The notes beneath the pieces are model-generated. The model saw nothing but the letters and a program-made list of their open reading frames with translations. It was not told the DNA's origin and ran no database searches. Below, piece by piece: positions 1-64,000 of a stretch of 64,000 nt of DNA. Location of the stretch: contig OX597818.1 in NCBI GenBank assembly GCA_951406725.2, positions 101,432,001-101,496,000 on the forward strand. The letters run 5' to 3'. This DNA comes from Octopus vulgaris. Lineage: Eukaryota. Position 1 is the first letter of the stretch, and each line of letters opens with the position of its first letter. The position numbers and the translations under genes were made by a program.

Positions 1-2001
1 ACATCAACTGCATGAAAGATATAAATTCATACAAATTTTAACGTTCATTTTCTATCCTAATCTGCGTGATATTCAGCATACAACAGTGCAAAAATACCTT
101 AAATATATTTTGACAATACAAATGGATAATTGATTAAAAGCTACCGACGTAAAAACAAATAGAGTGGTAACAATCTCTCGTCAGGCAAGTACTTCAGCCC
201 TTTACGTCTTCCAAACTAGTGGGAAAGATCTGCAACTAAATCATGATTCCTGAGTGCGCTACTACTGATATACTCTAGTTTGAAATCGGATATTCGTTCA
301 TCCCCTGTGCAGTATTTTTCAATCCATCTGGCCTGGCATATTGAGCAATCATGGTTCCCACTTTGCCAGAATAGACAGATATAGGAACCTGCTCTTTACA
401 AGTAAACCTTAGCTAGGACAACACACATACATGCATACAAATATACGCACACACATAATAGCTACAAGTGTTAAATATAACTGATCCTCATCTAAAAGAC
501 AACACACTTTTATGCGCTTAGGAAAATTACAACCGTATGCTTAATGTTGTATGGTTTCCACTAGTATTCCTTTCAATGTAAAAATAAATGAATATTATTT
601 TTTGAACTTTGTTAATGTATAGCTTACATGTAATTAAACACAACACACCTTGCAATCTTCAATAATTATACTGCTTCTTTATGAAAAGGAATCGTTAACT
701 CTAAAACTCGCATCACTAATGTATATCTGTAATATCGCTTAAATTTTTTAGCCTAGCATTTATGTGCAGTAAGTATGTTGATTCTTACTTTAATATAACT
801 TCGATTGAGAAATTACAAATTTTTTCTGAGAATAAGTAATCTGTGAAATTTAACATTTACAAACCTATTAAAATTAAACGATGATATGTTCAAGCATATC
901 TACATAATCTACATATGTCCAACAAATACCTTTGCGTTTTAAAGAAAGAGCTGGGAGAACAAATCTGATGTGACTCTAATCTAGGTGTTTGCATGTATGT
1001 ATATAAAATGAAAATGCAACCTACCTCATGAAGAAGAATTCCCAAGCGTGTTCCCTGCTTTTAAAGTGTACGAAATGATCATCTACACCCGGAAGCCTGT
1101 GATATAATTAGTATGAGTAGAAATTATGTTAGCTTCGTAGAATTATTAGATATTGTATATATTACCAATTTGATATCAAGAAAAATAAAATAATAATAAA
1201 TGTCAGAGCGAGTTATAAACAGTAGCTACAACACATTGTGACGTACATCTGTCATTTAAATATGGCTAACACCTAAGATTGGATGCTAATGTAGTTTGTA
1301 GCCCCAGGAGGACACCTCCTACAGCTGGCCATAGAGACAATTTCTGTGCCCTATCAGTGTTTGCAAAGGGAAGCCATCCTTCCCGTCTTAAACTTATGAT
1401 ACACACGGACTTGTGTGGATTTTGTAACCGATAATCCAATTTCCGACATTTTAGGAGTAATCATGTTCAATATATCTATACAACTATCAATATTAAATCT
1501 CCAACTTCATATTCAGAGTTATTTTACCTTATCTACGCTTGTGAATATTGAAATTTTTTTTAAATCACAAATATCTTCCCGCATATTGATATCTTGAAGT
1601 TATTTCGTTACCATGATTTTTCGCCAAAACACGCTGACCGTATTTTAAATGGTTTGAAAATGATGCAAAATATAGAAAAAAAGAATAGGAATAGTACATA
1701 TAACCTACATTAACAGGTTATTTTCATGGAAGGATAAATTCTGTAGCACTTTCAAAATGGAGTGGGTATCATAAAACTAAAAACGTTATTTGGAGGCTTT
1801 ATATCAAAAAAGGCATTTCAAATGAAAGAGCTCGGAAAAAATTCATATTGTTTTTATATCCTTTTAATGGTTTCGGCAATAGGGCTGAGGCCATGCTGGA
1901 GCACCAGCCTAATTTTCTATCAGTATTTAACGCCTTATGCTTGGAGGTTATGATTGAGTTGAACATCTCTCTGTGTATCCATGGACGATGGGCTGCCCCG
2001 G
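1..2001. repeat. Segmental/tandem duplication copy 1 (near-identical to 62000-64000)
   Basis: Position 1 acatcaactgcatgaaagat recurs at 62000 and the alignment runs to the window end with only scattered substitutions. Offset is about 61,999 bp. Confidence 0.97.
1025..1096 (-). CDS. Gene A 72-nt exon (LPGVDDHFVHFKSREHAWEFFFM)
   Basis: Acceptor tatatcacag| and donor AG|gtaggt, phase 2-2. Frame and splice sites are conserved in the paralogue at 63024-63095. Confidence 0.7.
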
Positions 2002-3930
2002 TAATGTCGTTAGGCCTTTATTCAATACGTGCTTTTTATTTTAAGATTTCCATTAGGGATTCGTTCTATATTTACATTTCTGATTTGTAGGTTTTGCCTA
2101 CTTTGAAAACTCGAGGAAGGTATAAATGCTAACATTGAAAGCGATTTATTTAAATTACAGAAATAGTTTGAGACAACTGAAAAAAGTCTATTTCACACCG
2201 AAATATTTCTTCAGATTTCATTTTTTTAAATATATCGGATTTCTATGATTCCGCAAAACATTGTGCGCAAATATTATTTTTTTCTGTTCCCCAAATTTTA
2301 TTTAACGATTATTATAACAAAATCTTGCACTATATCCTATATGTCAGGTAAGGCCTTATCTGAGGACTGTAAGCTTTGATGTCTCTCTAAACACTAAACT
2401 TTACCCATGATTGATAACCTACTCTTAAATCCTAACGCTAATCGATTATTTCGTTGTGGGTTGATTAGCTATCTGCTACGTTTCAAGTATATACTTTTGG
2501 AAAAAGCAGGAATATCAATAAGTACCACACGGTCCGTACTTTGAGACGAATTAAATAAAAATTACATTTCCCTACTACCAGTCGTGCAATTTTTTTTACC
2601 ATACTTACTTTCATTGCCCCTTCTTTCCTCCGTCCGGCATATATGTTCTGATTCTCTTCACTCCAAATATTACGGTCTTTCCACTCCCTCTCGCCGCCTT
2701 ATGTTGCTTCTCGCCCTTCGTCTAGATCTCCATTCCACGCTTGCCCGCTTTCATGCTGCTTTTCCTTAATGATTCGTTTTTCTCTTCCTCAAATTGCTTC
2801 AAAATTTAAATCAGTTGCTCTACTATGTGAGCTGGTTTTGCTATTTATTTTCTCTTCAAGACGGATATCGTTCTCATGGCAATATATCTTTGCAACTATT
2901 AAGTAGGATCATATGCATGACGTTTTGCACATTCAGTCTGATAATTGGGAATATAACGATAGTTAACTAATTTTAAGTTTCTAAGAAATAGCTATTTATT
3001 AAAAACATAATGCGTCCTCAACTTCATATTTTAAACTAATATATGTATATATATTTATATATATATATATATATATATATATATATATATATATATATAT
3101 ATATATATATATATATATACATATATATATATATACATCAATAAAAAACTGTTTCAATTTGAAAAATACAGAATACGTCATAATATGCACATATACCCAA
3201 CTTTTATCTTTTTGCATATTTCACCTCACGATTACATCACTGTACATAAATCCCTTCACTAAACAAGGTTTTCGAAACTTGTCTATGTCTGTGCACATAT
3301 ATATTCTCCGCATTACCGAAAGCTGAACAGTTATCACTCTTACCAACAAAAATAGCAATAATAGCGATAACGAATTACATCCATGTATTCATCTACTTTT
3401 GAATTTCATCACACACAACATGAACAAAATTTCTTCTTAAGAAAAAATACATATTCAAATAAGTAAAATATATGTTCATGAATAGCGATAGCGAATCCGG
3501 TCGATAGATTAAAAATTATATTAAAACTATGCAATTGTGCGTATTTTCCTTATTTAATTTCTTATATATATATATATATATATGCATGGATATACAAATA
3601 TATATGTATATGTATATATATATATATATATATATATATATATATATATATATATATATATATATATATATATATATACATACATACGTACATATATACC
3701 ATATATATGCAAAGATACGTACATATATATGTATATGTATATATATATATATCTAATTATGCATATATATACACACACACATATATATATATATATATAT
3801 CTATATTGTATAGAGGGCATTAATACACTTAAATGCCTCACACTAAGAGGGACAAAGTCATTACTACCAAAATTACACTAATCATACCTAAATGGAGTTC
3901 TTCAAAGCAAGACATTTAAAAAATGAATTT

Positions 3931-61999: not shown

Positions 62000-64000
62000 A
62001 CATCAACTGCATGAAAGATATAAATTCATACAAATTTTAACGTTCATTTTCTATCCTAATCTGCGTGATATTCAGCATACGATAGTGCGAAAATGCCTTA
62101 AATATATTTTGACAATACAAATGGATAATTGATTAAAAGCTACCGACGTAAAAACAAATACAGTGGTAACAATCTCTCGTCAGGCAAGTACTTCAGCCCT
62201 TTACGTCTTCCAAACTAGTGAGGAAGATCTGCAAATAAATCATGATTCCTGAGTGCGCTACTACTGATATACTCTATTATGAAATCGGAGATTCGTTCAT
62301 CCCCTGTGCAGTATTTTTCATTCCATCTGGCCTGGCAAATTAAGCAATCATGGTTCCCACTTTGCCAGAATAGACAGATATAGGAACCTGCTCTTTACAA
62401 GTAAACCTTAGCTAGGACAACACACATACATGCATACAAATATACGCACACACATAATAGCTACAAGTGTTAAATATAACTGATCCTCATCTAAAAGACA
62501 ACACACTTCTATGTGCTTAGGAAAATTACAACAGTATGCTTAATGTTGTATGGTTTCCACCAGTATTCCTTTCAATGTAAAAATCAATTAATATTATTTT
62601 TTGAACTTTGTTAATGTATAGCTTACATGAAATTAAACACAACACACCTTGCAATCTTCAATAATTATACTGCTTATTTATAAAAAGGAATCGTTAACTC
62701 TAAAACTCGCATCACTAACGTATATCTGTAATATCGTTTAAATTTTTTAGCCTAGCATTTATGTGCAGTAAGCATGTTGATTCTTACTTTAATATAACTT
62801 CCACTGAGAATTTACAAATTTTTTCTGAGAATAAGTAATCTGTGAAATTTAACATTTACAAACCTATTAAAATTAAACGATGATATGTTGAAGCATATCT
62901 ACATAATCTACATATGTCCAACAAATACCTTTGCGTTTTAAAGAAAGAGCTGGCAGAACAAATCTGATGTGACTCTAATCTAGGTGTTTGCATGTATGTA
63001 TATAAAATGAAAATGCAACCTACCTCATGAAGAAGACTTCCCAAGCGTGTTCCCTGCTCTTAAAGTTTACGAAATGATCGTTTCCACCCGGAAGCCTGTG
63101 ATATAATTAGTATGAGTAGAAATTACGTTAGCTTCGTAGAATGATTAGATATTGTATATATTACCAATTTGATGTCAAGAAAAATAAAATAATAATAAAT
63201 CTCAGAGCGAGTTATAAACAGTAGCTACAACACATTGTGACGTACATCTGTCATTTAAATATGGCTAACACCTAAGATTGGATGCTAATGTAGTGTGTAG
63301 CCCCAGGAGGACACCTCCTACAGCTGGCCATAGAGACAAGTTATGTGCCCTATCAGTGTTTGCAAAGGGAAGCCATCCTTCCTGTCTTAAACTTATGATA
63401 CACACGGACTCGTGTGGATTTTGTAACCCATAATCCAAGTTCCGACATTTTAGGAGTAATCATGTTCAATATATCTATACAACTATCAATATAAAATGTC
63501 CAACTTCATATTCAGAGTTATTTTACTTTATCTACGCTTGTGAATATTGAAATTTTTTTTAAATCACAAATATCTTCCCGCATATTGATATCTTGAAGTT
63601 ATTTCGTTACCATGATTTTTCGCCAAAACACGCTGACCGTATTTTAAATGGTTTGAAAATGATGTAAAATATAGAAAAAAAGAATAGGAATAGTGCATAT
63701 AACCTACATTAACAGGTAATTTTCATGGAAGGATAAATCTGTAGCACTTTCAAAATGGAGTGGGTATCAAAAAAGTAAAAACGTTATTTGGAGGCTTTTT
63801 ATCAAAAAAGGCATTTCAAATGAAAGAGCTCGGAAAAAATTCATATTGTTTTTATATCCTTTTAATGGTTTCGGCAATAGGGCTGAGGCCATGCTGGAGC
63901 ACCAGCCTAATTTTCTATCAGTATTTAACGCCTTATGCTTGGAGGTTATGATTGAGCTGAACATCTCTCAGTGTATCCATGGACGATGGGCTGCTCCGGT
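62000..64000. repeat. Segmental/tandem duplication copy 2
   Basis: Colinear with 1-2001, including the paralogous 72-nt exon. ORFs 1762..1953 and 63760..63951 are nearly identical. Confidence 0.97.
63024..63095 (-). CDS. Gene A' (paralogue) 72-nt exon (LPGGNDHFVNFKSREHAWEVFFM)
   Basis: Same splice sites as 1025-1096; 6 nucleotide and 4 amino-acid differences. Confidence 0.7.

What the first reader, a model, noticed from the sequence alone, without database searches (positions are those of the whole stretch)
1025..63095. Co-oriented cluster of orphan small secreted or GPI-anchored protein genes sharing phase-2 exon grammar
Seen: combining gene A exons with the terminal exon of its paralogue gives MRNIIFVLILSVSLINA-LNSTTAEEIQNDTKTILQDEVTSTIRTTPNLR-LPGVDDHFVHFKSREHAWEFFFMR-HPKLSSTFYIASKFWNSRSLGPVGLSHSYIFVLIFLTLYLVTCMT*. 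That is a signal peptide, a glycosylated Thr-rich stalk, a short aromatic segment and a hydrophobic tail, with all introns in phase 2. Further hydrophobic-tailed terminal exons lie at 33243, 38862 and about 54900 on the same strand. I recognise no known domain. Inference: a lineage-specific, tandemly expanding family of cell-surface proteins, possibly for recognition, immunity, gametes or secretion.
Basis: partly seen in the sequence, partly recalled or inferred. Interest (0 to 1): 0.75.

Follow-up and report, generated by a model that had tools for sequence, protein, structure and literature searches.

The report
Octopus tandem surface-protein gene trio
This is not a cluster of tiny genes: the window holds halves of two long, many-exon octopus genes from a tandem trio, each predicted to make a membrane-anchored surface protein of an undescribed family that likely serves in cell recognition or adhesion, with a sugar-coated outer segment whose length varies by exon copying.

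Summary
The window spans parts of two of three tandem minus-strand genes (A, B, C; 42-60 kb, 14-19 exons, 303-467 aa). The 38862 and 54900 'terminal exons' are intronic; such frames occur at chance rate (91 seen, 91.6 in shuffles). Only 33243 is a true last exon, and its intron is phase 1. Predicted product: signal peptide, 1-6 tandem Thr-rich N-glycosylated 102-nt cassette exons, a four-cysteine helical domain with a microexon-built loop, then a membrane anchor. Gene B is an A/C hybrid with a stop inside its membrane helix. At least 8 family loci lie on three contigs; homologues were found only in Octopus. Relatives carry a furin motif, some followed by a Gly/Ala-rich hydrophobic peptide and a GPI-like tail; the window genes lack both motif and peptide. 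No Pfam family, no significant fold match, no paper found. Real, undescribed, function untested.

The parts
24197..24240 (-). Gene A exon 1, signal peptide (44 nt coding, phase-2 donor)
   Evidence: same start in O. sinensis models P0001, P0005-P0007
17438..17539 (-). Gene A Thr-rich cassette exon, copy 1 (102 nt, phase 2-2)
   Evidence: 2 residues from a repeat in P0001/P0005/P0006
14945..15046 (-). Gene A Thr-rich cassette exon, copy 2
   Evidence: identical to a repeat in P0005-P0007
12479..12580 (-). Gene A Thr-rich cassette exon, copy 3 (identical to copy 2)
8832..8933 (-). Gene A Thr-rich cassette exon, copy 4
   Evidence: identical to a repeat in P0001/P0006/P0007
7476..18195 (.). Array of about 2.5-kb tandem units (exon + mariner-like relic + TA tracts) that multiplied the Thr-rich exon
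1025..1096 (-). Gene A aromatic exon (72 nt); gene A continues for 11 more exons to about 34.7 kb left of the window
63024..63095 (-). Gene B aromatic exon (72 nt); exon 1 and six Thr-rich exons lie 7-30 kb right of the window
61440..61535 (-).
   Evidence: spliced contig on the gene C copy; P0001, P0002, P0004
60573..60711 (-).
   Evidence: no database protein; broken in gene C; weak acceptor; AATAAA right after its stop
60049..60183 (-).
   Evidence: 4 of 4 candidates hit, E 2e-20 to 9e-17
55486..55500 (-). Gene B 15-nt microexon, at the place where relatives carry the furin motif
   Evidence: in P0001, P0002, P0004
46843..46857 (-). Gene B 15-nt microexon
   Evidence: in P0002, P0003, P0004
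45755..45793 (-). Gene B 39-nt microexon (skipped in P0002)
   Evidence: in P0004; 39-nt counterparts in four distant paralogues
42813..42848 (-). Gene B 36-nt microexon
   Evidence: P0002, P0009, P0012
41459..41485 (-). Gene B 27-nt microexon
   Evidence: P0003, P0009, P0012
39090..39143 (-).
   Evidence: P0003, P0009, P0012
38194..38286 (-). Gene B 93-nt exon with Cys3
   Evidence: P0002, P0009
36365..36414 (-). Gene B 50-nt exon with Cys4 (phase 2 to 1)
   Evidence: P0003, P0009, P0012
33243..33358 (-). Gene B true last exon; a TGA cuts the membrane helix and leaves a 13-residue hydrophobic end
   Evidence: P0003, P0009 show the longer form of gene C
45800..46800 (.). Interval of the A/C switch in hybrid gene B (near 46.5 kb)

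Best explanation
The window holds the 5' part of gene A and the 3' part of gene B of three tandem, 14-19-exon Octopus genes, each predicted to encode a membrane-anchored surface glycoprotein that likely acts as a cell-recognition or adhesion protein. Shown: the exon chain and its phases, the trio, the copy number of the Thr-rich exon (4, 6, 1), the hybrid make-up of B, and splicing of three exons in one run. Inferred: a signal peptide leads the protein into the secretory path; a four-cysteine bundle of about five helices, formed from both halves of the ectodomain, sits next to the membrane and would be the binding surface, with a loop of five microexons sticking out of it; the outermost Thr-rich repeats (about two N-glycan sites each) would form a glycan coat whose length is set by exon copy number and by in-frame skipping. 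A and C would be held by one membrane helix with a short tail; B, cut by a stop, would be GPI-linked or shed. Relatives would be cut by furin in the loop; this clade lost the motif and the hydrophobic peptide behind it, so it would stay uncut and bind rather than insert. Unequal crossing-over between A and C likely made B.
For: Gene structure: GT-AG at 47 of 47 modelled introns, open frames in 3 of 3 genes; spliced contig over two junctions; overlapping database models tile all junctions but one. Constraint: pN/pS 0.44-0.54 over 11 core exons; B versus C 0 of 299 exon bases differ against 58 of 1792 in flanks, P about 6e-5. Membrane anchor: 19-residue Kyte-Doolittle peaks 2.82 (A) and 2.08 (C) followed by basic tails. 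Cassette use: four O. sinensis isoform models hold three repeat copies or each of the three pairs; skipped microexons in models of relatives. Family: same exon chain and four cysteines in paralogues on two other contigs. Fold: two models agree on a helical core (pLDDT about 58-76 by block) with a low-confidence loop. Hybrid: informative sites switch sharply near 46.5 kb.
Against: No single transcript or protein covers a whole gene of this clade, and the junction between the 39-nt and 36-nt microexons is inferred from phase and from relatives only. The O. sinensis models P0001 and P0004-P0007 stop early by reading into an intron, which would give secreted forms. Database proteins are predicted models, and isoforms of near-identical exons may be mapping artefacts. 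Mean pLDDT is only 49 and the folds are of relatives, not of the window proteins. There is no tissue, partner or function data; no excess of amino-acid change overall, as one might expect of an immune or gamete arms race. Ser+Thr+Pro in the repeat is only 29-33%. B may be an assembly duplication.
Confidence: 0.5

Rival explanations
1. The family is a furin-primed, membrane-inserting protein (fusogen-like or lytic): cleavage would expose the Gly/Ala-rich hydrophobic peptide on the anchored half. The window genes would be uncut derivatives acting as partners, decoys or regulators.
For: R-x-K/R-R in the loop of 11 of 11 non-window sequences and 0 of 3 window models; loop Gly+Ala 17-28% in the 9 sequences of the C15-type clade against 0-2% in the window genes; the motif sits in its own microexon. 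Cleavage that frees an N-terminal hydrophobic peptide is the class I layout (PMC2633019, passages).
Against: No heptad repeat above shuffles after the site (10 to 106 of 200 shuffles reach the score in 9 of 9 proteins; crude test); the models are compact bundles; those relatives end in a GPI-like tail, not a membrane helix; the C21 clade has the motif without the peptide; the 11 sequences include orthologues and isoforms, so they are not independent.
Confidence: 0.15
2. The main products are shed or secreted glycoproteins of mucus, skin, egg coat or seminal fluid with a coating role, not receptors; anchoring only serves display before release.
For: Early-ending O. sinensis models; B has lost its tail; relatives have furin motifs and GPI-like ends; 8 and 11 N-glycan sequons in the repeats of A and B.
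Against: A and C keep a membrane helix and tail (P0009); the four-cysteine core is conserved over long branches; several early-ending models sit on 39-kb contigs, shorter than the gene.
Confidence: 0.25
3. Gene B is an assembly artefact: the segment from the 3' half of C to the 5' half of A was laid twice from two haplotypes, so only two genes exist here.
For: A false duplication of that segment gives the same order as unequal crossing-over; the two copies differ by only 0.6-4%.
Against: The join would have to fall where A and C differ by about 9-12%; O. sinensis has three separate 5' halves in its models (LOC115231167, LOC115231142, LOC115212221); B has its own repeat number (6 against 4), insertion and stop. 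Allelic differences could still explain the last point.
Confidence: 0.15
4. One reading: several small GPI-anchored genes, each ending in its own hydrophobic exon (HPKL, 54900, 38862, 33243).
For: The HPKL frame is open in A and B, fits phase 2 after the 96-nt exon and has AATAAA after its stop; the X15 contig ends exactly at the end of the 96-nt exon. It could be a minor alternative end.
Against:: no protein, no cover, chance-level counts, frames shifted or broken between copies, acceptors 44% pyrimidine against 62-100% in 12 of 12 modelled acceptors.
Confidence: 0.05

Closest known systems
Uncharacterised Octopus models: O. sinensis LOC115231167, LOC115231142, LOC115212221, LOC115231305; O. 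vulgaris CAI9723277-CAI9723279
   Same: Same genes or direct orthologues; 88-99% identity over aligned residues to the best-matching window gene for the six tested.
   Different: All are fragments (109-223 aa) that split each gene into halves or skip exons; none is named or described in the papers searched.
Distant family members: O. bimaculoides LOC106881475, LOC106881480, LOC106876345; O. sinensis LOC115220522, LOC115220523, LOC115220626, LOC115222984
   Same: Same exon chain, four cysteines and conserved motifs; about 35-48% identity.
   Different: They have a furin motif and mostly a GPI-like end, most have a Gly/Ala-rich peptide, and none has the Thr-rich exon, whose 11 of 11 genome matches lie in this cluster.
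Membrane mucin-type proteins and cassette-exon glycoproteins (MUC1, CD45, CD44; recalled, no call)
   Same: Membrane-distal Thr-rich repeats of variable number or optional use, a folded juxtamembrane domain, one membrane helix, short tail.
   Different: Repeats are one exon each, only 29-33% Ser+Thr+Pro and rich in N-glycan sites; no SEA or other Pfam match; predicted all-helical core.
Schistosome micro-exon genes (MEGs; 10.1101/2023.06.21.545858, passages read)
   Same: Signal peptide, symmetric short exons including 15-nt ones, lineage-restricted, variation by skipping.
   Different: MEG exons are 3-81 bp throughout and the proteins secreted; here only 25-39% of the coding sequence is in exons of 81 nt or less, around a folded core with a membrane anchor. 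No sequence link was found.
Taxonomically restricted tandem arrays of coleoids (reflectins, suckerins, unnamed arrays; PMC9068888, section 11 read)
   Same: Clade-specific genes in tandem clusters with no similarity to known proteins.
   Different: That section names no such membrane protein family; its Supplementary Table 4 (squid arrays) was not seen.

Membership tests
GPI-anchored proteins | N-terminal signal peptide | tested here: met
   Hydrophobic N-terminal stretch in 3 of 3 models by hydropathy only; SignalP was not available.
GPI-anchored proteins | Hydrophobic C-terminal signal with no cytoplasmic tail (genes A and C) | tested here: not met
   A 19-residue hydrophobic segment is followed by about 32 residues in A and by a short basic tail in C.
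GPI-anchored proteins | Same feature in gene B and in the C15/C21 relatives | tested here: inconclusive
   B ends in 13 hydrophobic residues after small residues; relatives end in a hydrophobic run. No GPI predictor was on hand.
Membrane mucins (MUC1 type; features recalled) | Pro/Thr/Ser-dominated tandem repeat | tested here: inconclusive
   Ser+Thr+Pro 29-33%, repeats of 34 aa: Thr-rich but weak for a mucin domain.
Membrane mucins (MUC1 type; features recalled) | SEA domain next to the membrane | tested here: inconclusive
   No Pfam SEA match in 10 proteins; low-confidence models show helices and no strands.
Schistosome MEGs | Coding sequence made of exons of 3-81 bp; secreted product | tested here: not met
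   25-39% of coding bases in such exons; membrane anchor present.
Class I fusion proteins | Furin-type site ahead of a hydrophobic peptide (window genes) | tested here: not met
   0 of 3 window models have R-x-K/R-R; loop is charged.
Class I fusion proteins | Furin-type site ahead of a hydrophobic peptide (C15-type relatives) | tested here: met
   9 of 9 sequences of that clade, by motif and composition only; cleavage not shown.
Class I fusion proteins | HR1/HR2 heptad repeats | tested here: not met
   Crude a/d score not above shuffles in 9 of 9 proteins.
Class I fusion proteins | Trimer | not tested
Spidroin N-terminal domain fold | Five-helix bundle of the same topology | tested here: inconclusive
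   Best rows Z 6.8 (rmsd 3.4, 98 aligned) and Z 5.1 (rmsd 4.0, 99 aligned) to 9lki_D, identity 7-13%; below the tool's bar of about 13 for helical bundles.

The most novel reading that the evidence does not exclude
Octopuses have invented their own family of furin-primed surface proteins that unmask a fusion-peptide-like segment to act on another membrane, and the three genes here are disarmed offshoots that swapped the trigger for a splice-tunable glycan mast and act as recognition partners or decoys.
Probability: 0.08. Interest if true: 0.85.

Novelty: new variant of a known kind. Interest (0 to 1): 0.45.

Why it matters
It repairs an annotation that public models leave in fragments and defines an Octopus family (at least 8 loci here) with a conserved four-cysteine core and a modular loop. 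The family shows exon-level tinkering in action: a furin motif and hydrophobic peptide gained or lost as single microexons, a repeat exon copied 1-6 times, a hybrid gene, and a change of anchor. If the relatives are cleavage-activated membrane-active proteins, that would be a new animal fusogen or lytic family. As it stands it is a well-posed but untested orphan family; microexon-rich genes seem common in this genome, which lowers the surprise of the layout itself.

Tried and rejected
Homologue search with the HPKL exon: none. No RNA holder was listed by the run search; runs X13, X14 and X4 showed no spliced piece of the gene, which says nothing on expression. Pfam: no family at its cut-off in 10 proteins. 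PDB by sequence: best E 0.24 and 0.46. ESM Atlas: no usable feature hit for 2 of 2 queries, own models pLDDT 0.34-0.36. Foldseek: 0 matches at E 0.001 in PDB and in the viral library. VIA-align: 0 chains at Z 8 or more of 48,161 for either model; this does not show that the fold is new. Positive selection: not seen overall; the 54-nt exon differs at 12 of 54 bases between A and B against about 11% in its flanks, a hint only. An 18-nt candidate microexon near 43.3 kb was left out: no database protein holds it and it was not clearly kept in gene A. Paper searches with 12 accession terms found 0 papers, and octopus + furin + fusion peptide + GPI found 0; searches listed nothing on this family (listings only). 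Six supplementary files of PMC6341066 had 0 hits; those of PMC12691039 could not be read. Earlier-finding look-ups by place, sequence, words and relatives gave nothing.
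Full report
Observation. The four peptide pieces of the finding map to the minus strand at 24240, 8933, 1096 and 60711. Self-comparison showed that the Thr-rich exon lies in a 2.5-kb tandem array and that bases 1-2002 recur at 62000-64000 with 97% identity. The window is G000:C5:101432001-101496000. With 70 kb fetched on the left and 130 kb on the right the region resolves into three tandem units of about 60-70 kb. 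Every homologue found is from Octopus, so G000 is taken to be an octopus genome.

Laid on the gene C copy, one 445-nt contig of run X15 (1 of 4 runs; its RNA nature is the tool's guess) joins the Thr-rich exon to the aromatic exon and that to a 96-nt exon, skipping 3606 and 1040 bases; the second skip has GT-AG ends and the first fits them with one differing base. That 96-nt exon is window 61535-61440 in gene B. The HPKL exon found no protein (0 of 2 candidates). The next open phase-2 exon, 60183-60049, found 4 of 4 candidates: O. sinensis and O. vulgaris models that run on past it and never use HPKL.

True gene structure. A splice-site scan filtered for conservation in all three units (40 of 65 candidates kept), together with the database models, gave one chain per unit: 44-nt signal exon; 102-nt Thr-rich exon (4 copies in A, 6 in B, 1 in C); exons of 72, 96 and 135 nt; microexons of 15, 15, 39, 36 and 27 nt; exons of 54, 93 and 50 nt; last exon. 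All 47 introns are GT-AG; 44 are phase 2 and the last of each gene is phase 1. The frames are open: 427, 467 and 303 aa over 59, 60 and 42 kb. Overlapping models P0001, P0002, P0004 and P0009 tile every junction type except the one between the 39-nt and 36-nt exons, which is inferred from phase and from relatives P0008/P0013. No single record covers a whole gene of this clade.

The extra 'terminal exons'. 33243 is the real last exon. 38862 and 54900 lie in introns of gene B, their frames shift between copies, and the HPKL frame is broken in C. AG-led frames of 30-90 codons with a hydrophobic end number 91 on this strand, 51 on the other, and 91.6 on average in 30 shuffles. The HPKL and 54900 acceptors have 44% pyrimidines against 62-100% in the 12 modelled acceptors of B. 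HPKL could still be a minor alternative end in A and B: it fits phase 2 and has AATAAA behind its stop.

Constraint and history. Over 11 core exons pN/pS is 0.44 (A-B), 0.50 (A-C) and 0.54 (B-C), on small counts; the six 3' core exons of B and C are identical (0 of 299) while their flanks differ at 58 of 1792. Informative sites show that B matches C left of about 46.5 kb (0.7-4% apart, 11-16% from A) and matches A right of it (0.6-3.5%, 4.5-9% from C). That is the product expected of unequal crossing-over between A and C, though a haplotype duplication in the assembly would look alike. B's last exon has an in-frame 18-nt insertion, a TGA inside the membrane helix, and two single-base deletions only after that stop, as if the shortened frame is what is kept.

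Family. Searches of G000 with P0002 and P0019 gave 8 loci: 3 here, 3 on C15, 2 on C21, a lower bound. The four distant genes examined keep the chain 81-84, 96, 129-138, microexons, 39, then 24-27 nt, and as far as traced 36, 93 and a phase 2-to-1 exon. A full HMMER pass over 1.84 billion representatives gave 7 hits and a profile search 8 hits among 2870 candidates; all named ones are O. vulgaris, O. sinensis or O. bimaculoides uncharacterised models. A tree of 14 rows gives three supported clades. The C15 clade has a furin motif, a Gly/Ala-rich hydrophobic stretch of about 35 residues and a GPI-like end; the C21 clade has the motif only; the window clade has neither, has the Thr-rich exon (11 of 11 genome matches in this cluster) and a membrane helix with a tail in A and C.

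Structure. No Pfam family, solved sequence or Atlas cluster matched. Two AlphaFold models of complete relatives (15-row alignments, mean pLDDT 49) agree on helices before and after a low-confidence loop that holds the furin motif and the microexons. Fold searches gave nothing significant; spidroin N-terminal domains recur at Z 4.3-6.8 across both halves of the core, which supports one bundle of about five helices but no kinship. A crude heptad test was negative.

Mechanism. Most likely an uncut surface glycoprotein whose helical core binds a partner and whose distal Thr-rich, N-glycosylated repeats (8 sequons in A, 11 in B) vary in length by copy number and skipping; four O. sinensis isoform models show three copies or each pair of them. 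Gene structure about 0.9; this function about 0.5 or less, by analogy only. Rivals: a shed coating glycoprotein, or a disarmed offshoot of a furin-primed membrane-active family.

Literature. PMC9068888 (passages and section 11 read) reports unnamed clade-specific arrays in squid but not this family; its supplements were not seen. 10.1101/2023.06.21.545858 (passages) defines MEGs, a test not met here. PMC2633019 (passages) gives the class I features. Accession searches found no paper. MUC1, CD45 and CD44 comparisons and the furin consensus are recalled. Earlier AI notes list other microexon-rich genes in this genome; unchecked, they suggest the layout is not rare here.

Verdict. Interest 0.45.

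Noticed in passing
window 29112-32159 (+), 48500-50700 (+), 50800-54520 (+): Three related LINE copies; RVT_1 at E 1e-26 and 2e-18 in two of them. The copy at about 51-54 kb in an intron of gene B has no aligned counterpart in both A and C.
   Followed up: partly
window 5216-6724 (+): 502-aa open frame with a weak RVT_1 match (E 4e-4) and a C-terminal motif recalled as GIY-YIG: probably a Penelope-like element in an intron of gene A.
   Followed up: partly
window 18196-18700 and inside each 2.5-kb unit: Decayed mariner-like transposase pieces (recognised from memory) and TA tracts at the unit borders, a likely substrate for the exon duplications.
   Followed up: partly
window 3796-4371, 9971-11132, 20281-20730, 40177-40952, 41636-41920: Near-perfect inverted repeats of 150-750 bases, mostly around TA tracts; fold-back duplications or assembly artefacts.
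   Followed up: no
G000:C15 about 30724300-30729600: A 2.6-kb tandem duplication (98.7%) copies a pair of 27-nt and 54-nt exons in one C15 family gene, so exon doubling recurs in the family.
   Followed up: no
G000:C21 about 13812900-13834000: The plus-strand C21 gene has several candidate 15-18-nt microexons and local tandem repeats in its loop region; its furin motif was not determined.
   Followed up: no
G000:C21 13.78-13.85 Mb and C15 30.64-30.74 Mb: On both contigs two family genes lie head to head, 12 and 33 kb apart at their aromatic exons; a shared regulatory region is possible.
   Followed up: no
   Followed up: partly
window 24860-24980: A donor-like site about 650 bases upstream of gene A's start, in a short repeated element; a possible 5' untranslated exon.
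   Followed up: no
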